A DNA stretch of 64,000 bases from Shigella phage KRT47: the sequence record MN781580; one strand, given 5' to 3'. Both the position numbers and the translations under genes were made by a program. This document shows, piece after piece, positions 2,448 to 57,267 of the stretch. Under the pieces are notes generated by a model, which worked only from the letters and a program-made list of their open reading frames with translations, was not told where the DNA came from and did not search any database. Positions within the stretch are counted from its first letter, which is position 1. Each line of letters starts with the position of its first letter.

Positions 2448-4264
2448 TACTGGCTCATCCATTCTTTACGAAGGTCAGCATTATCTCCCATGAGCATTTC
2501 AAAAAGCTCTTTCCAATTCTCAGGAAGTTTAACAACATCATATACTGGATTTTGAATCATCTCACGATATTCAGATTTTTCCAAAGAGCCAAGTCCTTTA
2601 ATATAACGGATGCTATGTTTAGGTAGAGCATCTTTGGCACTCTCATATTCAGCGACTGTATAAAACCATTCTTGTTTTTTACCGACCTGAGCGATGATTA
2701 CAGGAGTTTTGACAAAGCGAATTCGTCCTTGCTCAAACAGTTCTGGCCAATTACTAAAAAATCCAAGAAGAGAAGGATAAATGCTTCCTAAACCATCATG
2801 GTCAGCATCGGTCATAATAGCAATATTATGATAATTCAAGTTTTCAGCTTTTTCACCAAGAACTAATCCAGTGATTGCGCAAATATCAAATAGTTCTTTG
2901 TTTTTAAGCATATCAGCATATGACATACCCCAACTGTTGAGAACTTTACCACGCAATGGATAACCACCGTGAAGTTCTTTATCACGAACATCAATAAGAT
3001 ATCCGATAGCCGAATCACCCTCGGTTAAGAACAATGTAGTATCAGCATCTTTACCGCACAGATTAGCTTTAATATGTTTATGAACCTTTGCCTTAGAAGC
3101 CTTTTTAGCTGCTTTAGTTTCAGCTGCTTTTTCTGCTGCCAATTTACGAGCTAGTGCAGCTTCAATAATTGGCATTAAAATTGCTTCATTATTTAAAATA
3201 GCGCGTGAAATCTTTTTAGCGTCAAGTTGAATATGACTACGGATTTCACCAAATGGAGAAGTCAAACGCTCTTTAGTTTGAGAATCAAATCGCATGTTTT
3301 TCATATCACGGACAAACATAACGATAGTCAAACATTCTTTGACACGTGCTTTAGTTACATCAATTTTGAACTTACGTTTGATTTGTGGAATAAGGTCTTC
3401 ACAAATATCATCCATAACACAGTCAATGTGATGGCCACCATTCTTAGTGTGAATGTTATTCACATAAGTTAATTGGCGAAATCCATCCGGTGAACGACCA
3501 ACCGCAATAGAACAATTTTCTTGTTCTTGAACAATAGCATGTTCATCATACTGTCGTGCATATTTCTTAAAATTGCCCTGAACCTTTTTACCATTAAAGG
3601 TAAATTGAATATCAGGATAAACAACAGCAAGTGTCTGGAGACGATCTAGTGTAATGTCAAGATAAACTTGGGACAGCTCATTAGTTTCAAATGACATAAA
3701 ATCTGGAATGAAAGTAACACGAGTTCCTTTCCATTTTCCAGGAATAGTTTCCCAGGATTTATTTTCCATGCCATTTGAACAACGAACTACAATATTATTT
3801 TGACCATCGCCAGTTTCACCGACAAACATCACAGAAAAAATGTTAGTTAAACTAGAACCAACACCATTCATACCACCGGTGACACGTTCTTTATCATCAC
3901 CAAAGTTACCACCCGCTTTTGGAATAGTCCAAGCAGCAACTGGACCAGGAATTTCTTCACCGGTAGGTGTTTTAACCATCGCTTGTGGAATACCGCGACC
4001 GTTATCTTCAACTGTTACCTGATTATTTTTAATGGTAACATTAATTTTATTCGCGAATTTAAACTTAGTACGAATACCTTCATCGACTGAGTTATCGATA
4101 ATTTCATCAATAAGCTTAACAAGACCAGGTACATACTGAACACTTTCCCATTTACCAAACAGAAAGCGCTCATGCATTTCATTAGCAGAAGAGCCAATGT
4201 ACATGCCACTACGCTTTTTGATATGTTCAATATCGCTCAGAATTTTAATTTCATTCTTAATCAT
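2447..4264 (-). CDS. 39: DNA topoisomerase II large subunit, uninterrupted GyrB-like protein (GHKL ATPase + TOPRIM), 605 aa
   Basis: GHKL ATPase motifs N-terminal, TOPRIM-like EGDSA motif C-terminal; ATG at 4262-4264 (track start is an upstream GTG). Confidence 0.9.
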   Translation of the reverse strand: MIKNEIKILSDIEHIKKRSGMYIGSSANEMHERFLFGKWESVQYVPGLVKLIDEIIDNSVDEGIRTKFKFANKINVTIKNNQVTVEDNGRGIPQAMVKTPTGEEIPGPVAAWTIPKAGGNFGDDKERVTGGMNGVGSSLTNIFSVMFVGETGDGQNNIVVRCSNGMENKSWETIPGKWKGTRVTFIPDFMSFETNELSQVYLDITLDRLQTLAVVYPDIQFTFNGKKVQGNFKKYARQYDEHAIVQEQENCSIAVGRSPDGFRQLTYVNNIHTKNGGHHIDCVMDDICEDLIPQIKRKFKIDVTKARVKECLTIVMFVRDMKNMRFDSQTKERLTSPFGEIRSHIQLDAKKISRAILNNEAILMPIIEAALARKLAAEKAAETKAAKKASKAKVHKHIKANLCGKDADTTLFLTEGDSAIGYLIDVRDKELHGGYPLRGKVLNSWGMSYADMLKNKELFDICAITGLVLGEKAENLNYHNIAIMTDADHDGLGSIYPSLLGFFSNWPELFEQGRIRFVKTPVIIAQVGKKQEWFYTVAEYESAKDALPKHSIRYIKGLGSLEKSEYREMIQNPVYDVVKLPENWKELFEMLMGDNADLRKEWMSQ

Positions 4265-4334: not shown

Positions 4335-4594
4335 TATTTAAAACGAATAGTTGAATCCTTAAAGAACAGCCCAGAACATACTGTTCCTTCTACTTTCTGC
4401 CCGGTAGGTCCAATAGCACGAAATCCAGTATGTTGGAAATCATTTTCAGAGCAACCGAACCAGTTATATCCAGTGATTTCAATATTCGTAAAACCACTTG
4501 ATGATAAAATTTTAGTTGCATTATCAGCATCAGTACATCCTGCTAAAGACACTGCTAATACTAATGCTGCGATAGAACGATTAATATATTTCAT
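4334..4594 (-). CDS. Putative lipoprotein, 86 aa
   Basis: N-terminus MKYINRSIAALVLAVSLAGC has signal peptide plus lipobox (LAGC); ATG at 4592-4594. Confidence 0.55.
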   Translation of the reverse strand: MKYINRSIAALVLAVSLAGCTDADNATKILSSSGFTNIEITGYNWFGCSENDFQHTGFRAIGPTGQKVEGTVCSGLFFKDSTIRFK

Positions 4595-4598
4595 AATT

Positions 4599-4970
4599 TC
4601 ACTCAAATTTAATGGCTTGAAGAAGACTAATAATTCTCAAGCGACTTCTTTCATCTTTAACTGTAAAAGAAAGAGGGTCACCAGATTTCATAGTAATAGT
4701 ACATTCAAAATCAAAATCTTCTGTGACTTCTTCGAAGAAGTCAAATTCTTCAGCATAAATTAGAACATTACTCTGCATACTGTGAAGAATTTTTCCGTTA
4801 TTTCCAGACGCTGTACTAATCATCGTAACATTATGACCTTTCATATCTTCAACGATAAATTCGCTTGTAGATATTACAGCATTAATAGAACCATTCCTAT
4901 AAATAGCAGACATTAGATATTTCTTTTCTTCGCCTTCGCGAATACGATATTTCTTACCGATTTTAAACAT
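4599..4970 (-). CDS. Hypothetical protein, 123 aa
   Basis: ORF with ATG at 4968-4970 immediately after the stop of the upstream zinc-ribbon ORF. Confidence 0.5.
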   Translation of the reverse strand: MFKIGKKYRIREGEEKKYLMSAIYRNGSINAVISTSEFIVEDMKGHNVTMISTASGNNGKILHSMQSNVLIYAEEFDFFEEVTEDFDFECTITMKSGDPLSFTVKDERSRLRIISLLQAIKFE

Positions 4971-4972
4971 AA

Positions 4973-5149
4973 TCACCCTTTAAGTAAGTCGTAAAATCCG
5001 CCATTCACATGCTTAGGAGCAGAAGCCCGACGAGTAGACAAACGATGACATTTAGGGCAAACATCATTTTCTCGTTCAGAAATCTTTTTAATTTTTTCAT
5101 ATTCATGCCCGCAATCTTCGGATTGGCATTTATAATCATACATTGGCAT
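4973..5149 (-). CDS. Small zinc-ribbon protein, 58 aa (not in ORF track)
   Basis: Hand-translated MPMYDYKCQSEDCGH...CPKCHRLS with two Cys pairs; AAGGA SD before ATG at 5147-5149. Confidence 0.5.
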   Translation of the reverse strand: MPMYDYKCQSEDCGHEYEKIKKISERENDVCPKCHRLSTRRASAPKHVNGGFYDLLKG

Positions 5150-5151
5150 AA

Positions 5152-5577
5152 TTATTCCTTAAAATGAGCTTTCAGCATCTGATACAAGGACCATGCCTGT
5201 TCATTATTTTCAATAGTAACTTTCATGACAGGAAATTCTGTGAAATCTTCTATTTGTTCTTGCTCTTGCTCTTCCTGCTCTTGCTCTTCAGCTGCCTGAT
5301 ATGGATTTTCCACTTCATCAAAGAACTCAGCTTCGTTAGTAGAGAGCCAGATAAAGTTTTCGTCAAGGATATCACCATGTGTTGCATATCCAATTGTGCC
5401 AGTAAATGACATAATTTTAGTAGGACGACCAAGATGGTCAACATCTAAAATTTTAAAAGGATGCATACCTAAACGTCGTGCATAAATTCCGTTATCAGTA
5501 TGGTCTTTAATAAAAGCTTCTTGAGCTTGTTTATTTTTAAATTGATACCATTTATTAACTTCAAATTTAATAGCCAT
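5152..5577 (-). CDS. Hypothetical protein with acidic EQ-repeat tract, 141 aa (possibly goF-like by size and position)
   Basis: ATG at 5575-5577 overlapping upstream stop; identity to T4 goF not verified. Confidence 0.55.
5257..5289. repeat. Imperfect hexanucleotide repeat (CTCTTG/CTGCTC) encoding the [12 protein letters not shown] tract
   Basis: ttcttgctcttgctcttcctgctcttgctcttc read directly from the sequence. Confidence 0.6.
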
Positions 5578-5792
5578 TAATAAATTTCCTTCCAGTAAGT
5601 TGTGCCATCTTCAGTAATTTCACGAAATACACCGTAAATTGGTTGTTTATCACCAACCTTTTCATACACATAAACCGAAGTCAAGTGAGTAAACTTGATG
5701 GTGTGTTCCTTTTGAACCACTACCAAATCTGGGTCAAATAATACATCTTCAAATTCGTCATTAGTGCAATTCTGAACAATTTTACGTTTCAT
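5577..5792 (-). CDS. Small hypothetical protein, 71 aa (cef-like size and position)
   Basis: ATG at 5790-5792 with GAGGAAA SD. Confidence 0.5.
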
Positions 5793-5805
5793 TACAATTT
5801 CCTCA

Positions 5806-6075
5806 TTAATTGAACAGTGGAGCGATGCGTTTCAGAAGAGTAGCAGCACCTTTGGCGAATTTTACATCATGAAAAACAGTTTCTTCTTCCGTTACAACAC
5901 GAGCTTTAATGTTTTCACAATCCCAATTTTTGCGAACAATCTTCAAAAGCTGCAGTAAATCTTTACATTCAGCAATATCGATAACACATCCACGAGAATC
6001 TTCCATTATCGCACGATAACCGTAAGCCATACCATAATCATTGAAAGATTGCTCGATGATAATTAAATTTTCCAT
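5806..6075 (-). CDS. Hypothetical protein, 89 aa
   Basis: ATG at 6073-6075 with GGAG SD (track extends to an upstream TTG). Confidence 0.5.
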   Translation of the reverse strand: MENLIIIEQSFNDYGMAYGYRAIMEDSRGCVIDIAECKDLLQLLKIVRKNWDCENIKARVVTEEETVFHDVKFAKGAATLLKRIAPLFN

Positions 6076-6182
6076 TTTATTCTCCAAGTTGTTTTCTGTA
6101 TCAGTAGTTGATATTGATATAGTACCATAATCAACTACTGATGTATATAGTTTTATGAAAAAATTTTAAACTTTATGCAAAT

Positions 6183-6602
6183 TTATGCTAAAGCTGCTTC
6201 GCACCATTTTTTAATTTGGAATTCAGGAACTACCATGAACTGGCCTGCAAAAACAATATTGTAGAGCTTGACACCATCTTCTACCCAACGGTCCGAAATA
6301 AAACCAGCGACTTGATTCGTTGTCCATGGAGTTCCATCTGTTGCCGCCGCAATTGTGAATTTATGGTCTTTTACAACTAAAACTGAAGAACAAAGTTTCC
6401 ATTTAAATGCGCTTTCTTCTGGCTCAATGAACTGACTTGAGACATAACCGATGTTACCATCAGCGTCACGAACTTTAACCTCGTTACGACCAAAAACTGG
6501 ATCACTTACAGAAAGAACTTCAACCAGCTTTCCTGCAACTTTAGAACGAGAAGCAACGGATACATATACGTAATCACCAGTAGAGAGATTTACAATATTC
6601 AT
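6183..6602 (-). CDS. Hypothetical protein, 139 aa; member of a tandem paralog trio
   Basis: ATG at 6600-6602 with AAGGA SD; C-terminal motif shared with the 6612 and 7158 ORFs. Confidence 0.6.
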   Translation of the reverse strand: MNIVNLSTGDYVYVSVASRSKVAGKLVEVLSVSDPVFGRNEVKVRDADGNIGYVSSQFIEPEESAFKWKLCSSVLVVKDHKFTIAAATDGTPWTTNQVAGFISDRWVEDGVKLYNIVFAGQFMVVPEFQIKKWCEAALA

Positions 6603-6611
6603 AATAATTCC

Positions 6612-7085
6612 TTAAGCTTTACGAGGAGAAGCATAACGAGTGATTTCAGATTCTTCAACAACCCGGAAGTCACCTAAGAATACGATATTGTAGAGCTTTT
6701 CACCATCTTCAACCCATTGGTCTGTGATGAAGCCACACATCCTATCAGTTTTACTTGGACCAGCGAAATCATCAATATAATCGAATTCTTCATCAGTTAC
6801 AAATTCAACGCCTTTACACAACGCCCATTTAAATTGTGCATTAGACTCAGTGGATTCAACTTCTTCAACAGAAGCAAAATGAGAGCTAACACGAGTTTCC
6901 AGAAATTTAGGACTTACGTAAGCGTACTGAGTTTCAGTTTTTCCAGAACTAGGAATGATTCGAACTTTAACTTCTATAACACGACCAGTACCATTAGTAC
7001 GAAGTCCTACCACTTCAACTAGACGACCTGCAGCTTTAGAACGAGATGCAGACGATACACGCTTAATTTCACCGATAGTAATCAT
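6612..7085 (-). CDS. Hypothetical protein, 157 aa; paralog of the 6183 and 7158 ORFs
   Basis: ATG at 7083-7085; shares N-terminal SRSK.AG.LVEV and C-terminal TDQWVEDG..LYNIVF motifs. Confidence 0.6.
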   Translation of the reverse strand: MITIGEIKRVSSASRSKAAGRLVEVVGLRTNGTGRVIEVKVRIIPSSGKTETQYAYVSPKFLETRVSSHFASVEEVESTESNAQFKWALCKGVEFVTDEEFDYIDDFAGPSKTDRMCGFITDQWVEDGEKLYNIVFLGDFRVVEESEITRYASPRKA

Positions 7086-14255: not shown

Positions 14256-14455
14256 GATTTATCCCCATAGATGTCTCTCATCAATTTAAGTGCTGAGCGT
14301 TCTAATTTCTTTTCTTTCTCAGCACTAATCATTGATTTCATCCATTCTTCCGATTCGTTCTGCATTTCTTTATTTGCCTGTTCAACCCAACCATCGTCAA
14401 TATACATTGAGTTTGGTCTATTGAACCATTCAAGCATTTTCTTCAGAACTTTCAT
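14252..14455 (-). CDS. Small hypothetical protein, 67 aa
   Basis: ATG at 14453-14455. Confidence 0.45.
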
Positions 14456-14915
14456 TTGTTTTACCTAAAACAATAGTAGGAGCATCGTCAAATTCATGAA
14501 TTTTTAGCAATTTTGGATTTAAATTATTCCATACATAATAAATAAAGTATGATAAAGCATCTTCACTCGCAATTATAAATTTATTTCCTTCATTTATTTT
14601 CCAGTCATATACTGAATCGTACGAATAAAAAGATAAAGGATTACCATTATATTGTTCTGCGCTAACATTAATGTATTCGGATTTAGTAAATGCTTCAATT
14701 GCTCTAAACGGACTATTTGGCACAGTTTCAATAATTCCGATCTTTTTAAGTTTTATTTCAACATCTTCTGGAACTGGCATTGAAACGAAATTTTCTACGA
14801 GATACATAGGGTTACAATAACCCTTATCAATCACTACGGCTACAGTAATTGGAACATCTTTAGCAAACGACATGCTATTACTGCTAATATACATTTCAAA
14901 CAAAATCGCTTCCAT
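14430..14915 (-). CDS. Hypothetical protein, 161 aa
   Basis: ATG at 14913-14915 with GAGGA SD; track start is further upstream. Confidence 0.5.
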
Positions 14916-14923
14916 AATTTTCC

Positions 14924-15418
14924 TCAATCGCAAGATGTAGATGAACAACCAGAATCACAAGAACTTCCACATGAATCACCAGTCCAAGAACTAACAGCCG
15001 TGACTGTTATAATAGGAGCGGTATCGATATAGCTTTCTGAACGTCTTGAATCTAAATGTTCTTTTAACTTTTTAGAATTCAATGGAAGCGCACCTGCACC
15101 AACATTACCAGCTTTTTCTGGTTGACGAATAATTTCTTCCATCGTATCGTCGCTCGCATAAACATTAGTATCATATGAATCAGAACTAGACTGTGTATTA
15201 GATGATGTAGTAGGTGTTGACCAGCGCCAAGGATTTTTATAATATTCTTGGGCTTCTTCATAAGTCATAGTAACTGCTTCTACTGTTCCATCTCCCATAT
15301 AAACATATTCAACTACAGTTAAAGGAAGGTAGTCATTTGAAATAGGAACTACACCTTCTCCGGGAGTTGTAGAGAAAAAATCCGTAAAGAAACTTTTAAA
15401 CCAATTAAAGATAAACAT
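14924..15418 (-). CDS. Hypothetical protein, 164 aa, with Ser/Thr-rich linker and Cys-rich C-terminal tail
   Basis: C-terminus [21 protein letters not shown]; ATG at 15416-15418. Confidence 0.5.
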
Positions 15419-50909: not shown

Positions 50910-51878
50910 TTATTTCAGAAGAGTAACCTCAGCGATTTCTTCCCAACCGTTTTTGTCGGTCATAATAAAGTCAGCAAGATAAAGAGCAGTACGCAGTGAA
51001 ACATTGCGTAAACGATTAACATTGACTTTCATCCATGATAATGCTTTATAAGTTTCTTCATCAGAAAGACCGCGCTTTTGCATCATGTCAGTTGAAAGAA
51101 TAACATCTTCAACCCTGACCATAATTTCTTCATTAGTGTGAACACCCAAATCCAAATAAACTGAGCGGGACACTAATGCTTGTAAGTGTGGGGCAAGTTT
51201 AGTACCACGGTCTAATTCGCGGTCAATGTCAACGTTTGTGATAAAAACAATCGTTCCTTTAAATTCAAACTCACGCTCAATGCCTTTTTCTTCTAAGTAA
51301 GAAGATGCAGTGCTCCAGCAGACTTTGCGGGTCTCTCCGGTGTCCAGAGCAGCTTTCAGAAGATTAAGAATGTCCATATCAGAGAAAACATCCACATCAT
51401 CAATCAAAAGGACAGAATTCTCTTCACGATTATTCCAAAGCTGCTCATAAAGACCGATACCAGAGATTTTACCGTTAATGCTTTTATACTCAATGTATCC
51501 AATATCATTTGCTTTATTTAAAGCTTTATCTAAAGAATACGTTTTACCAATACCTGCTGCTCCCGAGATAATTAATGAACGAATGTTTCCGTTAATAATA
51601 CCATTCGTCATCATTCCCATAACATTAAATCTTTTATTAATGCGGGTTTTCATATCTTCATATGATTCTTTAACTTCTTCAACTTTTACACCATCATATG
51701 AAATGTCTGATTTGTAAACCCAAACACCGCGACGTTTACCGTCAATTTCAACAAAAACTTTACCATCTCCTTGTGCATCTACTGGAGCATTATCTGGGAA
51801 CCATTCGCCTAAGAGCTCAAAAGTTCCAGAGATTTCTTTACCGAAGTAGATACCCTTATTGATAGTTACAGTTTTCAT
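50910..51878 (-). CDS. P-loop NTPase, about 322 aa, with N-terminal beta-rich domain
   Basis: Walker A GAAGIGKT, Walker B LLIDDVD; ATG at 51876-51878 with GGAG SD and own early promoter. Confidence 0.65.
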   Translation of the reverse strand: MKTVTINKGIYFGKEISGTFELLGEWFPDNAPVDAQGDGKVFVEIDGKRRGVWVYKSDISYDGVKVEEVKESYEDMKTRINKRFNVMGMMTNGIINGNIRSLIISGAAGIGKTYSLDKALNKANDIGYIEYKSINGKISGIGLYEQLWNNREENSVLLIDDVDVFSDMDILNLLKAALDTGETRKVCWSTASSYLEEKGIEREFEFKGTIVFITNVDIDRELDRGTKLAPHLQALVSRSVYLDLGVHTNEEIMVRVEDVILSTDMMQKRGLSDEETYKALSWMKVNVNRLRNVSLRTALYLADFIMTDKNGWEEIAEVTLLK

Positions 51879-51912
51879 TTTATTCTCCAAATCCGTATCA
51901 GTTGATAGTTGT

Positions 51913-51942
51913 ATAGTACCATAAAGCTTTATGCTTGTAAAC
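51913..51942 (-). promoter_or_regulatory. Early promoter (-35 GTTTAC, -10 TACTAT)
   Basis: Minus-strand GTTTAC at 51937-51942, 18-nt spacer. Confidence 0.5.
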
Positions 51943-51972
51943 AACTTTGTGAAAAATTTTTGAAATAAAAAA

Positions 51973-51992
51973 AGGGAGCCCGAAGGCTCCCT
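51973..51992 (-). terminator. Stem-loop with UUCG tetraloop directly after the nucleotidyltransferase gene
   Basis: Plus-strand agggagcc-cgaa-ggctccct. Confidence 0.55.
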
Positions 51993-51993
51993 A

Positions 51994-53007
51994 TCATTTA
52001 TAATAACTTCGGTGGTTTTCAAGATAAACCTTCTCAAGGAAGTCATCCCAGAAACTCATGTCTACTTTTTGCTGCATACCGTTCTTAGAAGCTTCAGTAG
52101 ATGCTGCTTCTACTTGATCAACCACATCTTCCAAAAACTCTTGAACCGTTTTAAATGGATGTTTACCTAACTTCACGTCGAGAATAAAGGGAGCATCTTT
52201 GAGTGGATAAATCAAGTCGCCAGTTTTGTAAATTTCCAATAGTTGAAGTCCACCACGACAAGCATGACTCAGAGCTTTCCAATCAATACCTTCATTAGCT
52301 TCGGCTTTACGAGCACGTTCACCATATTCAGCATCTAATTTGTTCAGTGACTGCTTAAGCTCAATAAGAGAAAGCGTTGTCTGATATTTACGACCCAATA
52401 CAGTGTAGAACGTTTGTGGACCTGTTTTCTCATGATTATGGAACACCCATTCACAGAATTCGTTTTCTGGAAGACGATGCTTAATATCTTCAACTTTAGT
52501 GCGACGCTGCTTAATAGAACCATCTTCTTGGTAATCAACCCATTGCTCAGGGATTTGATTAACTACTTTCAATACATCGCGTAATGCAGCCAAACGAGAA
52601 CCCTTGACACCGTATTTAGAAGCTTGCTTGCGAACATATCCTAAATAGGATTTCATGTTAGTCGTATAAAAACGAGAACGGTTGTCTTGAATAAACTTCC
52701 ACACGTCAGGCAAATCAGATTTAACCACTAGTTCAGGTGGAGTGTGAAGCATATCCAATGCTACAGTTTCACCATCTGCTGCTAATTTAAAGAAATATTT
52801 AAGACTGTATAGTTCATGGTCAATATCATCTTTAGTGTTTTTAGATGATGTGTTATTAGTGTTTTTACTCATGTGCTCTTTGACATTTCCGATAAGAATA
52901 TCACGAGCAGGAGGAACAAAAATTTCTTTAAAATCTACATCAGATTCTGGGGTAGAAGTTCCATAAAGATGACTACCAAAATAGCTTTTCATTACTGTTT
53001 TCATCAT
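51994..53007 (-). CDS. Pol-beta superfamily nucleotidyltransferase, 337 aa
   Basis: N-terminal FGSHLYGTSTPESDVDF (GS-x10-DxD); ATGATGA overlap with the upstream membrane-protein stop. Confidence 0.6.
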   Translation of the reverse strand: MMKTVMKSYFGSHLYGTSTPESDVDFKEIFVPPARDILIGNVKEHMSKNTNNTSSKNTKDDIDHELYSLKYFFKLAADGETVALDMLHTPPELVVKSDLPDVWKFIQDNRSRFYTTNMKSYLGYVRKQASKYGVKGSRLAALRDVLKVVNQIPEQWVDYQEDGSIKQRRTKVEDIKHRLPENEFCEWVFHNHEKTGPQTFYTVLGRKYQTTLSLIELKQSLNKLDAEYGERARKAEANEGIDWKALSHACRGGLQLLEIYKTGDLIYPLKDAPFILDVKLGKHPFKTVQEFLEDVVDQVEAASTEASKNGMQQKVDMSFWDDFLEKVYLENHRSYYK

Positions 53008-53465
53008 TCAGCCTTATATTCAATAACAGGACATACTTTAGCTTTACGAGCTTTTAAAAATTCAACGATAATCGATTTCTTGGGTTGAATAGGAGGTAAA
53101 CCTTTATACGCCCTATCAATATTTTCTATGTGTAAAGCATAATCCTTTTTCCATTTATAATCTTTATATTTTTCATGCAAATGTGCAGGAATAACAAATG
53201 AACCAATAATAAGTAAAACAAGCAAAATGGCAAGTATAAATGCTGATGGAATAAGAGTCCATAAACTACCAAAAATAAGCCATTTCTGTATGATTTCTGC
53301 ACAGATAATAGTTAGACCTGCGAGTATAGTACATCCGAAAAAAGAAACGAAAAATGTAGGAATAACAACAGACCAAAAATATGCACACAGTGTCTTAGGT
53401 CGTTTCCATTCATCATTAAACATTTTGAATAATTTATAGTGCCAAGAGTTTTCATTAATAATCAT
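53004..53465 (-). CDS. Membrane protein, 153 aa
   Basis: Three hydrophobic helices; ATG at 53463-53465. Confidence 0.55.
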   Translation of the reverse strand: MIINENSWHYKLFKMFNDEWKRPKTLCAYFWSVVIPTFFVSFFGCTILAGLTIICAEIIQKWLIFGSLWTLIPSAFILAILLVLLIIGSFVIPAHLHEKYKDYKWKKDYALHIENIDRAYKGLPPIQPKKSIIVEFLKARKAKVCPVIEYKAE

Positions 53466-53467
53466 AA

Positions 53468-53989
53468 TTATCCTTTCATTGAAGGTGTAACAGTTGTTAA
53501 ATACTTAATCATAGCTTCAGCTTCTGATTTTGATAATGAAATTTCTCCATTGTTTTGACGAATAGAAATAAAATCCGGATGACGGTCACCACCAGCTTTT
53601 AAAATACACATATAAGTATCAGTTTCATCTTCAATATCTGAAATGATTGAAGCAGTTCCGCATGAATGTGGTTTTTGATAAATCAATGCAGCTTTTCTTC
53701 CACCGTTTGACTGTTCATAAACTTTTAACACATCAAACAAATCACTTCTTTTATCAATAGCTAAGATGTTGTTTTCATCTTCAATGTTAAATCCTTCGGA
53801 TACTTCATAAAGTGTCACCCATAAATCACCGATGTCAATAACAGCATTTCCTTTTCCACGACTTTCAAGAATATGACAAATTTTCTTGATTTCGTCATAA
53901 CTCATTTTAATAATATCATCTCCTTGAATAAGGAAGATGTCATTTTTAAATTTAACGCGAATTAAACCACTTCCACTTGAAATAAACAT
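53468..53989 (-). CDS. Hypothetical protein, 173 aa; paralog of the next ORF
   Basis: ATG at 53987-53989 with SD; C-terminal SEAEAMIKYLTTVTPSM shared with the 53996 ORF. Confidence 0.55.
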   Translation of the reverse strand: MFISSGSGLIRVKFKNDIFLIQGDDIIKMSYDEIKKICHILESRGKGNAVIDIGDLWVTLYEVSEGFNIEDENNILAIDKRSDLFDVLKVYEQSNGGRKAALIYQKPHSCGTASIISDIEDETDTYMCILKAGGDRHPDFISIRQNNGEISLSKSEAEAMIKYLTTVTPSMKG

Positions 53990-53995
53990 ATTTCC

Positions 53996-54553
53996 TCACT
54001 TTGAAATCATAGTTGGAATGACAGAATCAAGATAAGTCTTTAGCGCAATGGCTTCGTCTTTGGTAAATGTGACAATATGTGATCGAAAATCGTCAATTTG
54101 GCGAATAGTTAAGACATCTCCCTCTTCATAACATTTTGATACATTTAAAAGAGTTTCATCATTCTGATTGCAATCGTTAGTAATAATAGCATTGCAATTT
54201 TTGAGCCATTTTAAACTATGTTTTCTTTCATTAGAATAATAAAAATATTTAATCTTAGCTATAAAACTATCCCAATGAATAACTGATAAACACATTGACT
54301 CACTTTTAATATTAAATCCTGGGCATGAAGAATAAAAATGAATTTTGTGCTCATCATTGATGCTTACTATTTTATCAGTATAAGGATATTCAATTTGGGT
54401 TAAATGAATGATTTCATTAGGCGTAAAATACAGCATATCGTCTTCTTGCGTCAAACGATACATGTTATTTACTTTTTCTATAGCCAATTCACCAAAAAGC
54501 GGACTAACTTCTAATACTAATCGTTTCATATTGATTCTCTTCGACTCACTCAT
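53996..54553 (-). CDS. Hypothetical protein, 185 aa; paralog of the previous ORF
   Basis: ATG at 54551-54553 with AAGGAG; C-terminal TKDEAIALKTYLDSVIPTM. Confidence 0.55.
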   Translation of the reverse strand: MSESKRINMKRLVLEVSPLFGELAIEKVNNMYRLTQEDDMLYFTPNEIIHLTQIEYPYTDKIVSINDEHKIHFYSSCPGFNIKSESMCLSVIHWDSFIAKIKYFYYSNERKHSLKWLKNCNAIITNDCNQNDETLLNVSKCYEEGDVLTIRQIDDFRSHIVTFTKDEAIALKTYLDSVIPTMISK

Positions 54554-54678
54554 AATTACATACTCCTTTGAATAATATCAATAATGTTGTTCACCAGATT
54601 ATAAGTAAACATCGGGTGATAATATTGAATCATCACATACACAACAAACAAAATTTTCATTCTCTTCTCCTTGGCAGT

Positions 54679-54708
54679 TGACAAGATTACTATACCATAA
54701 CCTTGCCA
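54679..54708 (-). promoter_or_regulatory. Early promoter (-35 GTTTAC, -10 TATAGT)
   Basis: Minus-strand GTTTAC at 54703-54708. Confidence 0.5.
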
Positions 54709-54720
54709 ACTTGTAAACCA

Positions 54721-54894
54721 TTAAATGACGTTTTCAATAAAATTCTGAAGCTTTGTGTGAGCATCAACCATGATTTTCATTTCTTCCTTTGCGAAAGCTG
54801 TACCTCTTTCTCGAGCAGAATACTCATAGTCAGAAACTGCATTAGCATATTCTTCAATTAGCTTCATTAAAAACATCTGCTTTTCAGTTTTCAT
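54721..54894 (-). CDS. Small hypothetical protein, 57 aa (not in ORF track)
   Basis: Hand-translated MKTEKQMFLMKLIEEYANAV...; ATG at 54892-54894. Confidence 0.4.
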   Translation of the reverse strand: MKTEKQMFLMKLIEEYANAVSDYEYSARERGTAFAKEEMKIMVDAHTKLQNFIENVI

Positions 54895-55078
54895 TATTCC
54901 ACCTAATCATTTCAAGATATTGAACTAACTTAGCTTTGGATTTATCCAAATCTCTTTTAGCTGCTTCTATACCATCGTATGAGTATCCTTCACAATGCTC
55001 AACTGCCAATTGGTATGAATCTATTTCAATATCACGTGCTAATTTAATGATTTTTTCAAACTGTTCGCGTGTTAACAT
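54884..55078 (-). CDS. Small hypothetical protein, 64 aa
   Basis: ATG at 55076-55078. Confidence 0.45.
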   Translation of the reverse strand: MLTREQFEKIIKLARDIEIDSYQLAVEHCEGYSYDGIEAAKRDLDKSKAKLVQYLEMIRWNNEN

Positions 55079-55080
55079 AC

Positions 55081-55263
55081 TTAAACTCTCGTATTATGAT
55101 CGATAATTTCATCAAGAAACATATCTAAAGCTTCTAAAGCATTATCAACTTTAGCTTCAAATTCTTCAATACCTGATAAGGCAAAGTTAACGCGTTCCTC
55201 ATCTGCTTTGCGAATTAAAGCTACCAATTCTTTAATTTTATCTGCTTGTTCGATACTAATCAT
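55081..55263 (-). CDS. Small hypothetical protein, about 60 aa
   Basis: ATG at 55261-55263 (TAATG overlap); track extends upstream. Confidence 0.4.
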   Translation of the reverse strand: MISIEQADKIKELVALIRKADEERVNFALSGIEEFEAKVDNALEALDMFLDEIIDHNTRV

Positions 55264-55451
55264 TATTCCACCACATATGAAAGAGAGAATATTGCACACG
55301 CCATGTGAGTTGCAACTTCATCACACATATTATAACGTTTCTTAAGAAATTCTACAAGTTCTTCACTAGTAACTTCATCCATGTCGACGAAAAAATCACC
55401 ATTAATGATGACGTAGATATTTCCTTCTTGATTGAGTGCTTCAATTTTCAT
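55263..55451 (-). CDS. Small hypothetical protein, about 62 aa
   Basis: ATG at 55449-55451 with GAGGAG SD. Confidence 0.45.
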
Positions 55452-57081: not shown

Positions 57082-57267
57082 TTAAAGCGTATTCACATAA
57101 GCTATTAATTCGTTTTCTTTCTTATCAAACCGGTCAGCAAATTCTTCTTGCTGTTCGGGAGATAGCGGGCCGTATTCATCATAAAAGGTGTTTGCTTCTG
57201 TATGCTCATCTAGAAGTTCATGGATAAGCTCAAACAATTTATCTTTTTGTTCTTTGCTTAGGCTCAC
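57082..57267 (-). CDS. Small acidic hypothetical protein, 61 aa, GTG start
   Basis: ORF only; no in-frame ATG near the start. Confidence 0.4.
   Translation of the reverse strand: MSLSKEQKDKLFELIHELLDEHTEANTFYDEYGPLSPEQQEEFADRFDKKENELIAYVNTL

What the first reader, a model, noticed from the sequence alone, without database searches (positions are those of the whole stretch)
53468..54553. Pair of tandem paralogs (173 and 185 aa) upstream of the nucleotidyltransferase cluster
The two adjacent ORFs share a C-terminal block (SEAEAMIKYLTTVTPSM versus TKDEAIALKTYLDSVIPTM) and an internal Cys-containing patch (HSCG versus SSCPG) but are otherwise diverged. No known motif is recognised. Their position directly upstream of the membrane/NTase/ATPase genes raises the question of functional linkage.
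Basis: seen in the sequence. Interest (0 to 1): 0.45.

Follow-up and report, generated by a model that had tools for sequence, protein, structure and literature searches.

The report
Tandem MobD.1-family PUR-like phage paralogs
Two neighbouring early genes of a T4-like phage are old, diverged copies of the catalogued but uncharacterised MobD.1 (Pfam y05I) family; both are predicted to fold like the nucleic-acid-binding protein Pur-alpha, the pair occurs in hundreds of sequenced T-even phages, and its function is still untested.

Summary
ORFs 53996-54553(-) (185 aa) and 53468-53989(-) (173 aa) are homologous over their full length (BLASTP E=4e-9; 0/2000 shuffles reach the score).

"No known motif" is wrong. 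Both pass Pfam PF24449 and PF24448 (T4_y05I_N/C). The 185-aa gene is the T4 mobD.1 orthologue. The 173-aa gene is labelled "similar to mobD.1" in the T6 GenBank record.

The split is old, not a recent local duplication. Genomes exist with either copy alone, an in-frame hybrid, decayed copies, or 69-87-aa C-domain-only relatives.

In 27 of 28 loci carrying a family member, from at least nine Tevenvirinae genera, it sits directly upstream of a 2-TM membrane protein. The RlaP-type nucleotidyltransferase NrdC.11 follows. In the window these form one early operon; the ATPase nrdC.10 is a separate unit.

Function is inferred: a dimeric PC4/PUR-fold adaptor, possibly RNA-binding. Acidic composition argues against this. 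The pair is ordinary and already catalogued.

The parts
54689..54717 (-). T4-type early promoter (GTTTACA, 17 nt, TGgTATAGT) at the head of the transcription unit
   Evidence: Consensus scan, 10/12 matches with an extended -10 TG; sequence read. Its function is inferred from the consensus only.
54556..54660 (-). 34-aa mobD.2-like small ORF, the first gene of the unit. It has an AAGGAG Shine-Dalgarno sequence.
   Evidence: Sequence. T4 carries a 34-aa mobD.2 in the same position. No Pfam hit for the window copy.
53996..54553 (-). 185-aa MobD.1 orthologue. The N-terminal PUR-like domain is about residues 11-110 (nt 54523-54224). The C-terminal single repeat is residues 111-185 (nt 54223-53999). 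An alternative start at Met9 is used in many orthologues.
53468..53989 (-). 173-aa diverged paralogue (RB32ORF097c type). The N-terminal PUR-like domain is residues 1-97 (nt 53989-53699). The C-terminal single repeat is residues 98-173 (nt 53698-53471).
54152..54160 (-). GATGAAACT (Asp-Glu-Thr) in the 185-aa gene. The identical 9-mer lies at 53621-53629 in the 173-aa gene. This is the junction of the naturally occurring in-frame hybrid gene.
   Evidence: blastn of the hybrid gene (L024 3001-3540) against the window pair: nt 1-387 match mobD.1 and nt 379-538 match the 3' end of the paralogue, with a 9-nt overlap. Sequence read.
53004..53465 (-). 153-aa basic membrane protein with two TM segments (phrog_944; RB32ORF096c type). 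Its start lies 2 nt after the paralogue's stop, and its stop overlaps the nrdC.11 start (ATGA).
   Evidence: PHROG hit. Hydropathy and pI 9.3. It lies immediately downstream of a family member in 27 of the 28 loci that carry one; T4 is the exception.
51994..53007 (-). NrdC.11, a 337-aa RlaP-type (PF10127) nucleotidyltransferase and the last gene of the unit
   Evidence: Pfam RlaP E=1.8e-11, 44.6 bits against a 23-bit cut-off. phrog_388. 98% identical to T4 NrdC.11. RlaP biochemistry from bioRxiv 10.64898/2025.12.29.696909.
51973..51992 (-). Intrinsic terminator (GGGAGCC-UUCG-GGCUCCC followed by U7), 1 nt after the nrdC.11 stop codon
   Evidence: Terminator scan. RNA fold -16.5 kcal/mol, z=-4.5, 0/200 shuffles fold as well.
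51913..51941 (-). Second early-type promoter (GTTTACA, 17 nt, TGgTACTAT) that drives nrdC.10 separately
50910..51878 (-). nrdC.10 AAA-type ATPase. The likely true start is the ATG at 51878 (322 aa), not the 378-aa long ORF. It is a separate transcription unit and not part of the module.
   Evidence: The UFV13 annotation gives 969 nt. The phrog_1250 match begins at residue 57. A GGAG Shine-Dalgarno sequence precedes the ATG at 51878.

Best explanation
The two ORFs are ancient paralogues of the T-even phage MobD.1 family (Pfam T4_y05I_N plus T4_y05I_C).

Shown:
- Each protein has an N-terminal domain with the bbbba-bbbba topology of a PUR/Whirly (PC4-like 'type I') domain.
- Each has a C-terminal domain that is homologous at profile level to the first of those repeats. 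In many related phages this domain exists alone as a 69-87-aa protein.
- The 185-aa gene is the mobD.1 orthologue. The 173-aa gene belongs to a separate, older lineage that can also occur as the only copy.
- Both genes are under purifying selection.
- They sit in one early operon: mobD.2, mobD.1, paralogue, 2-TM membrane protein, then the RlaP-type nucleotidyltransferase NrdC.11.

Inferred:
- The lone C-terminal repeat cannot form a PC4-like domain by itself. It therefore pairs with a second copy, as Pur-alpha repeat III and single-repeat Bpur/PC4 do. This would give homodimers and, where both genes are present, possibly heterodimers.
- The dimer acts as a non-enzymatic adaptor. Most likely it holds single-stranded RNA, or ssDNA, for the co-transcribed 3'-end-extending nucleotidyltransferase NrdC.11. 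I put this at about 0.35.
- The alternative is that it acts purely through protein contacts with the adjacent basic membrane protein. I put this at about 0.3.

It is an accessory, frequently remodelled early module, not a core function.
For: Paralogy.

Family identity.

Repeat I versus C-domain: hhalign probability 83.6%, E=8e-6, score 28.6. Column-shuffled controls gave 8.4 +/- 1.8 with a maximum of 18.7 (0/200 reach the observed score).

C-domain-only proteins all pass the PF24448 threshold. They occupy the same genomic slot.

Low C-domain pLDDT (about 50-65) in the monomer models fits a domain that needs a partner.

Old split: the 173-type clade is 24-30% identical to the MobD.1 orthologues of the three genera named in the records (Tequatrovirus, Mosigvirus, Gaprivervirus) and of several unassigned IMG/VR T4-like genomes. 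It is the outgroup to all of them in a midpoint-rooted NJ tree.

Operon.

Conserved order 'family member, membrane protein, NrdC.11' holds in Tequatro-, Mosig-, Gapriver-, Teguna-, Jiaoda-, Moon-, Gelderland- and Marfavirus loci and in further unassigned T4-like genomes.

RlaP enzymes add 1-2 NMP to the 3'-OH of damaged RNA. T4 NrdC.11 is a member of that family.

PC4-like domains of type I and type II, and Pur-alpha as the protein that combines both, are described in PMC7549692.
Against: - Foldseek against the PDB found nothing significant (best E=0.02, TM about 0.2).
- There is no sequence-level match to the PurA, Whirly or PC4 families (profile against PDB sequences).
- The C-domain models have low confidence, so the 'third PUR repeat' rests on the secondary-structure pattern plus the profile-level homology.
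- The family is uniformly acidic: pI 4.2-5.7 with one exception, net charge down to -20. The conserved polar residues are mostly Q/D/E/N. This is unlike the basic and aromatic sheet surface of Pur-alpha, MRP or Whirly and weakens the nucleic-acid-binding reading.
- SsgA, a Whirly-fold protein that to my knowledge does not bind nucleic acid, is also a strong hit.
- Dimerisation, RNA binding and any contact with NrdC.11 or the membrane protein are untested.
- T4 keeps mobD.1 without the membrane gene, and T2 has lost both copies. The module is therefore dispensable, and its parts are not strictly interdependent.
- General T-even synteny could explain the conserved gene order.
Confidence: 0.6

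Rival explanations
1. The proteins are protein-protein adaptors that do not touch nucleic acid, analogous to SsgA/SsgB. The acidic MobD.1-family dimer docks on the basic cytoplasmic tails of the adjacent 2-TM membrane protein and acts at the inner membrane.
Against: T4 and about 47 close relatives carry mobD.1 but have no membrane gene. The 173-aa paralogue is at least 94% identical next to two membrane-protein alleles that are each only about 56% identical to the window copy, so there is no co-variation. Aeromonas phage P19 has the membrane homologue without any family member. No interaction has been tested.
Confidence: 0.3
2. The proteins are sequence-specific DNA-binding transcription factors, as the Pfam family name ('y05I-like putative transcription factor') suggests, and regulate phage or host promoters.
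For: The Pfam name. Pur-alpha, PBF-2/Whirly and PC4 were first described as transcription factors or cofactors. Expression is early.
Against: The name appears to derive from fold resemblance only; I found no paper on the family. The proteins are acidic. They are dispensable, copy-number-variable and often decayed, which is unlike a regulator of the conserved T4 transcription programme. Many relatives consist of a single 70-aa repeat.
Confidence: 0.1
3. The two paralogues form an obligate heterodimer; that is, the pair is a two-subunit protein, and this is why the genes are in tandem.
For: A lone C-terminal repeat needs a partner. The genes are tandem and probably translationally coupled. A second, independent tandem pair of C-domain-only genes exists in the Citrobacter phages Moon and CF1.
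Against: Natural genomes carry only the MobD.1 type (T4, Mosigvirus, Gaprivervirus), only the 173 type (L027), or a single in-frame hybrid (L024-L026). Merlin has one C-only copy where Moon has two. Heterodimers may form but cannot be obligatory.
Confidence: 0.07
4. The pair is a recent local tandem duplication that diverged quickly in this phage lineage.
For: The genes are adjacent, have the same orientation and frame, and share the same domain architecture.
Against: The 173 type is no closer to its Tequatrovirus neighbour (26%) than to MobD.1 of other genera (24-30%), and it is the outgroup to all of them in a midpoint-rooted tree. A 58%-identical 173-type gene is the sole copy in L027. Within Tequatrovirus the mobD.1 slot itself carries two alleles only 48-50% identical between flanks that are 96-99% identical, which shows cassette exchange by recombination. 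The tandem state is as likely to have arisen by recombination between phages carrying different versions.
Confidence: 0.1

Closest known systems
Phage T4 MobD.1 (UniProt Y05I_BPT4), which defines Pfam PF24449 T4_y05I_N and PF24448 T4_y05I_C and belongs to phrog_1502
   Same: The 185-aa ORF is its orthologue: 85% identity, the same position downstream of mobD.2, and an early promoter. The 173-aa ORF has the same two-domain architecture and passes both Pfam thresholds.
   Different: T4 has only one copy. In T4 the HNH homing-endonuclease gene mobD occupies the place of the 173-aa paralogue plus the membrane-protein gene. The 173-aa protein is only 26-28% identical to MobD.1.
Pur-alpha / PURA (PUR domain; PDB 3k44 for repeats I-II, 5fgo and 8chw for repeat III)
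Whirly / PBF-2 p24, StWhy2 and trypanosome MRP1/MRP2 (PC4-like 'type I' ssDNA- or RNA-binding domains)
   Different: Those proteins form tetramers or heterotetramers through extra helices, are basic, and have no third repeat. There is no sequence relationship.
SsgA-like proteins of actinomycetes (PDB 3cm1)
   Different: They are actinomycete cell-division proteins with no sequence similarity to this family and no C-terminal extra repeat.
Single-repeat PC4-like 'type II' proteins: Borrelia Bpur (3n8b), PC4/Sub1, phage T5 PC4-like protein (4bg7)
   Different: The match is weak, and it is not known which repeat of the model was aligned. There is no sequence similarity. The phage family carries a characteristic C-terminal YLxSVIPTMK motif that these proteins lack.

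Membership tests
MobD.1 / Pfam T4_y05I family | Score above the gathering threshold of PF24449 (N-domain, 24.9 bits) | tested here: met
   112.2 bits for the 173-aa protein and 132.6 bits for the 185-aa protein
MobD.1 / Pfam T4_y05I family | Score above the gathering threshold of PF24448 (C-domain, 27 bits) | tested here: met
   82.6 and 76.2 bits. phrog_1502 matches both proteins full-length at E=1e-66 and 6e-80.
MobD.1 / Pfam T4_y05I family | Orthology to T4 mobD.1 (sequence and position) | tested here: met
   The 185-aa ORF is 85% identical to T4 MobD.1 and sits in the same slot downstream of mobD.2. The 173-aa ORF is a paralogue, not the orthologue (26-28% identity; separate clade).
PC4-like / PUR / Whirly fold superfamily | bbbba-linker-bbbba topology of a type I domain | tested here: met
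PUR family proper (Pfam PurA; eukaryotic and Bacteroidetes/Spirochaete Pur-alpha) | Sequence match to the PUR repeat signature | tested here: not met
   No PurA, Whirly or PC4 hit in Pfam even at E<=1. A profile search of PDB sequences returned no Pur-alpha chain at E<=10. The proteins are therefore not filed as members of the PUR family; only the fold and domain logic are alike.
PUR family proper | The third repeat forms an intermolecular PUR domain (dimerisation) | not testable with these tools
Indirect support: the C-domain is homologous to repeat I, exists as stand-alone proteins, and has low monomer pLDDT.
PC4-like / PUR / Whirly fold superfamily | Binds single-stranded DNA or RNA on the sheet surface (basic and aromatic residues) | tested here: inconclusive
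Composition argues against it: pI 5.0 and 5.7 for the pair, 4.2-5.7 for all but one of the relatives examined, and conserved polar residues that are mostly Q/D/E/N. Model coordinates could not be inspected.
RlaP nucleotidyltransferases (PF10127), for the neighbouring gene nrdC.11 | Score above the Pfam gathering threshold (23 bits) | tested here: met
   44.6 bits, E=1.8e-11, covering the N-terminal catalytic half. T4 NrdC.11 is placed in SSN cluster 5 of the family in bioRxiv 10.64898/2025.12.29.696909. The activity of the phage enzyme itself has not been tested.

The most novel reading that the evidence does not exclude
The MobD.1 family is a phage version of the Pur-alpha design, with two repeats folded in cis and a third that dimerises. 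It would act as an RNA-holding partner of the RlaP-type 3'-end nucleotidyltransferase NrdC.11 and the small membrane protein. Together they would form a three-part early module that repairs or protects RNA (for example tRNA 3' ends) against host nucleases. The tandem paralogues, allelic cassettes and hybrids would be arms-race diversification of the substrate- or partner-recognition subunit, able to form homo- and heterodimers with different specificities.
Probability: 0.12. Interest if true: 0.6.

Novelty: already known. Interest (0 to 1): 0.3.

Why it matters
As found, it matters little. The pair is a catalogued family (Pfam, PHROG) present in about 430 sequenced T-even phage records, and the paralogy is already noted in GenBank annotation.

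What this analysis adds:
- The family is built from three related PC4/PUR-like repeats.
- Its minimal form is a single 70-aa repeat.
- That form keeps an invariant position in front of a small membrane protein and near the RlaP-type enzyme NrdC.11 across the T-even genera sampled.

T4 is where RNA repair was discovered, and a bacterial RlaP was recently shown to rebuild damaged RNA 3' ends. A defined, testable candidate partner for the uncharacterised T4 RlaP could therefore help assign a function to a block of 'nrdC/mobD' early genes that has had none for decades. The natural series (single copy, tandem pair, hybrid, decayed copies) is also a clean example of how accessory phage genes are remodelled by recombination and homing-endonuclease invasion.

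Tried and rejected

3. NCBIfam and PADLOC returned nothing for either paralogue, and nothing near threshold for the neighbours.

4. Literature searches for mobD.1, y05I, PF24449/PF24448, RB32ORF097c and phrog_1502 found no functional study.

5. I tried to model a heterodimer by feeding the in-frame read-through of both ORFs to the aligner and AF2.

6. The obligate-heterodimer idea is rejected because single-copy and hybrid genomes exist.

7. A recent in-situ duplication is rejected on the tree.

8. A metal- or redox-binding Cys patch is rejected. The two patches are not aligned and no Cys is conserved.

9. Single-sequence comparison of repeat I with the C-domain is not significant. Only the profile comparison is. 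Repeat II shows no sequence similarity to either.

10. The long repetitive proteins P0053 and P0063 (and P0059, whose sequence I did not inspect) from the exhaustive search are compositional or repeat artefacts.

11. Linkage to the ATPase nrdC.10 is not supported. It has a separate promoter behind a terminator and is missing next to nrdC.11 in several loci.
Full report
**What the window is.** The 4.6 kb around the finding is 98% identical to Escherichia phage vB_EcoM-UFV13 and 95-99% identical to more than 450 other T4-like (Tequatrovirus) records. All genes in the region lie on the minus strand. Comparison with the annotated T4 record and with UFV13 places the finding between the tk/rI/mobD.x block and the nrdC.x block.

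**Checking the observation.** The two ORFs exist exactly as described: 53996-54553(-) of 185 aa and 53468-53989(-) of 173 aa, 6 nt apart and in the same frame.
- BLASTP aligns them end to end at E=4e-9, with 26% identity over 175 columns.
- The local alignment score of 96 compares with 31 +/- 5 for 2000 shuffles (z=12.7, none as high). The N- and C-terminal halves are each significant on their own (z=6.1 and 6.8).
- The 'HSCG versus SSCPG' patch is not a homologous feature. The two strings sit at residues 107-110 and 75-79 and are not aligned, and no Cys is conserved in the family.
- Both genes evolve under purifying selection, with dN/dS of 0.11-0.14 and 0.17-0.38.
- An HMM of the family finds only these two copies in the 64-kb window.

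**What they are.** The statement that no known motif is recognised does not hold.
- Both proteins pass the gathering thresholds of Pfam PF24449 (T4_y05I_N; 112 and 133 bits) and PF24448 (T4_y05I_C; 83 and 76 bits). Both match phrog_1502 over their full length.
- The 185-aa protein is the orthologue of T4 MobD.1, at 85% identity and in the same position.
- The 173-aa protein is labelled in the T6 GenBank record as 'similar to mobD.1; RB32ORF097c'. The following membrane protein is labelled 'replaces mobD; RB32ORF096c'.
- I found no paper on the function of the family.
- The family is narrow. An exhaustive profile search of 1.84 billion representatives gave 24 hits. Three of them are long proteins; the two I inspected are repeat artefacts. 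tblastn finds MobD.1-like genes in 728 phage records, all enterobacterial T-even types.

**Fold.**
- AlphaFold2 with a 27-sequence alignment gives, for both proteins, an N-terminal domain of four strands and a helix, twice over, at pLDDT of about 90. The C-terminal domain of strands plus a terminal helix has low confidence, about 50-65.
- The next hits are the other bbbba-bbbba proteins: Whirly PBF-2 and StWhy2, trypanosome MRP1/MRP2 and SsgA. For the 173-aa model the single-repeat proteins Pur-alpha repeat III, Borrelia Bpur and PC4/Sub1 follow.
- Foldseek found nothing significant, and there is no sequence-level match to the PurA, Whirly or PC4 families. The claim is therefore one of fold, not of family membership.
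- This fold class, its intramolecular 'type I' and intermolecular 'type II' forms, and Pur-alpha as the protein combining both are reviewed in PMC7549692.

**The C-terminal domain is a lone repeat of the same kind.**
- A profile of repeat I aligns with a profile of the C-domain family at hhalign probability 84%, E=8e-6 and score 28.6 over 37 columns (strand 2 to the helix).
- Two hundred column-shuffled controls gave 8.4 +/- 1.8 with a maximum of 18.7, and the reversed profile scored 9.7.
- Repeat II shows no sequence signal, and single-sequence comparisons are not significant.
- Proteins that consist of the C-domain alone (69-87 aa) exist in several T4-like genera, and all pass the PF24448 threshold.
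- Inference: a single bbbba unit cannot form the domain alone, so these proteins, and the C-domains of the full-length proteins, should pair with a second copy as Pur-alpha repeat III and Bpur do. The three-repeat architecture (two in cis, one for dimerisation) would then parallel Pur-alpha. Dimerisation was not testable here.

**Evolution of the pair.**
- In a midpoint-rooted neighbour-joining tree, the 173-type clade (window, T6 and a 58%-identical gene in contig L027) is the outgroup. It lies outside the MobD.1 orthologues of Tequatrovirus, Mosigvirus and Gaprivervirus and of several IMG/VR T4-like genomes I did not assign to a genus, and it is 24-30% identical to each. The split is old, not a recent local duplication.
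- Every conceivable state occurs in nature:

| State | Examples |
|---|---|
| MobD.1 type only | T4, Mosigvirus a20, Gaprivervirus VR25 |
| 173 type only | L027 |
| Both types | 430 records at 90% identity or more to the 173-aa protein |
| Both decayed by frameshifts | two T2 records |
| In-frame hybrid | L024-L026 |

- The hybrid fuses mobD.1 nt 1-387 to the last 160 nt of the paralogue. The junction is a 9-nt identity, GATGAAACT, present at window 54152-54160 and 53621-53629.
- Within Tequatrovirus the mobD.1 slot itself carries two alleles only 48-50% identical, while the flanking 173-aa paralogue, nrdC.11, rI, rI.-1 and tk are 96-99% identical.
- In T4 and about 47 records, the HNH homing-endonuclease gene mobD has replaced the 173-aa gene plus the membrane gene. 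In Mosigvirus a20 a homing-endonuclease gene sits instead between the membrane gene and nrdC.11.
- The Citrobacter phages Moon and CF1 carry an independent tandem pair of C-domain-only genes (78 and 77 aa), while Merlin has one.

**Context and linkage.**
- The sequence shows a T4-type early promoter (GTTTACA, 17 nt, TGgTATAGT; 54717-54689).
- The genes that follow are a 34-aa mobD.2-like ORF, the 185-aa gene, the 173-aa gene, a 153-aa membrane protein and the 337-aa NrdC.11. The last three junctions are 6 nt, 2 nt and an ATGA overlap.
- A strong intrinsic terminator follows 1 nt after the stop codon (GGGAGCC-UUCG-GGCUCCC-U7; -16.5 kcal/mol, z=-4.5).
- A second early-type promoter and the real start of nrdC.10 at 51878 come next.
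- So the pair is co-transcribed with the membrane protein and the nucleotidyltransferase, while the ATPase is a separate unit.
- Of 29 loci fetched, 28 carry a family member. They cover Tequatro-, Mosig-, Gapriver-, Teguna-, Jiaoda-, Moon-, Gelderland- and Marfavirus plus further T4-like genomes I did not assign to a genus. In 27 of these the family gene, full-length or C-only, lies immediately upstream of the membrane gene, and T4 is the exception. NrdC.11 follows the membrane gene after 0-1.2 kb of variable genes.
- The membrane protein is more widespread, with 932 records. In Aeromonas phage P19 it occurs without a family member or a nearby nrdC.11.
- NrdC.11 belongs to the RlaP family (PF10127; 44.6 bits). 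Bacterial RlaP enzymes add one or two nucleotides to the 3'-OH of damaged RNA and are needed to restore function to heavily damaged, repaired tRNA. T4 NrdC.11 is placed in that family with its function unknown (bioRxiv 10.64898/2025.12.29.696909).

**How it most likely works.**
- Shown: paralogy, family, fold of the N-domain, homology of the C-domain to repeat I, operon structure, conserved neighbourhood and purifying selection.
- Inferred: dimerisation through the C-terminal repeat, and a non-enzymatic adaptor role.
- My preferred mechanism (about 0.35) is that the dimer holds single-stranded RNA, or ssDNA, for the co-transcribed NrdC.11. This follows from the usual job of this fold and from the RNA-directed neighbour.
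- The main rival (about 0.3) is a purely protein-binding adaptor, in the manner of SsgA/SsgB, docking on the basic membrane protein. In its favour, the family is uniformly acidic (pI 4.2-5.7 with one exception, net charge down to -20) and lacks the basic sheet residues typical of Pur-alpha, while the membrane protein is basic at pI 9.3. Its strictest genomic partner is also the membrane gene.
- Against the rival: T4 keeps mobD.1 without the membrane gene, and the 173-aa protein does not co-vary with the two membrane alleles.
- A classical transcription-factor role, as the Pfam name implies, seems least likely for a dispensable, copy-variable, acidic protein whose minimal form is a 70-aa repeat.

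**Verdict.** The increment here is the three-repeat PUR-like reading, the recognition of the single-repeat core form, the natural hybrid, single-copy and decayed series, and the precise operon definition. Interest is modest at 0.3. The most novel reading not excluded is an RNA-holding partner of the phage RlaP enzyme in a counter-defence or RNA-repair module. I give it a probability of about 0.12.

Noticed in passing
window 54721-55284 (-) and 57082-57267 (-): Three consecutive small ORFs (57, 64 and 67 aa) just upstream of the operon, and a fourth (61 aa) upstream of tk, all belong to Pfam DUF7438 (E 1e-13 to 3e-19). This is another array of tandem paralogues of unknown function (T4 mobD.2a/.3/.4 and tk.1 types).
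   Followed up: partly
L024 3001-3540, L025 3001-3540, L026 1306-1845 (Logan metagenome contigs): A natural in-frame hybrid gene (179 aa, P0011): the 5' 387 nt come from mobD.1 and the 3' 160 nt from the 173-aa paralogue, joined at the shared 9-mer GATGAAACT. It is the only family copy in those contigs and is followed by the membrane gene and the RlaP gene.
   Followed up: yes
L003 (phage T2, AP018813) 2940-4019; also MH751506: In T2 both paralogues are broken into several short annotated ORFs by frameshifts, and the membrane gene is mosaic. The module has decayed in this laboratory phage. Split mobD.1 genes also appear in Yersinia phage fPS-90 and in one T4 isolate (P0036, P0057, P0044).
   Followed up: partly
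L014 (Citrobacter phage Moon) 5875-6111 and 6098-6331; L012 (phage CF1) likewise: An independent tandem pair of C-domain-only family members (78 and 77 aa), directly followed by the membrane-protein gene (6331-6810). The related phage Merlin (L013) has a single copy.
   Followed up: partly
L001 (T4) 14430-15209; L005 (Mosigvirus a20) 4523-5305: The HNH homing-endonuclease gene mobD occupies different positions. In T4 it replaces the 173-aa paralogue plus the membrane gene. In Mosigvirus a20 a homing-endonuclease gene sits between the membrane gene and nrdC.11, and in Gaprivervirus VR26 the coordinates of a 79%-identical mobD place it just downstream of the membrane gene. MobD at 95% identity or more is present in 47 records.
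   Followed up: partly
L008 (Shigella phage ESh17) 3010-3552 and 4083-4556: Within Tequatrovirus the mobD.1 slot and the membrane-gene slot each carry a second allele only 48-56% identical to the window's. The 173-aa paralogue between them and the flanking nrdC.11, rI and tk are 96-99% identical. This indicates cassette-like mosaicism.
   Followed up: partly
window 53004-53465 (-): The 2-TM membrane protein has strongly conserved cytoplasmic ends across genera at about 30% overall identity: an N-terminal INExSWH...RPxxLCxYFW and a basic C-terminal PKKSIxxEFxxARKxKxCP. phrog_22816 corresponds to the C-terminal 73 residues alone.
   Followed up: no
window 50910-52046 (-): The 378-aa ORF listed for the ATPase nrdC.10 overlaps the 3' end of nrdC.11 and contains the terminator and a promoter. 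The real gene most likely starts at the ATG at 51878 (322 aa), as annotated in UFV13 and T4.
   Followed up: yes
L024 5160-5645; L003 (T2) 5619-6104: Some relatives carry an extra 161-aa gene between nrdC.11 and nrdC.10. In L024 and L026 it is annotated with PF26816 (Mod_ADP_RT, a Mod-like ADP-ribosyltransferase). T2 has a 161-aa ORF in the same slot, which I did not compare. The window has no such gene.
   Followed up: no
173-aa protein residues 15-42; L028 2274-2498; L007 3492-3716: Sub-threshold Pfam hits to DUF7189 (E 3e-4 to 1e-2, a 68-residue profile) cover repeat I of the 173-aa protein and nearly the whole of two C-domain-only proteins. DUF7189 may be a further, distant single-repeat relative of this family.
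   Followed up: no
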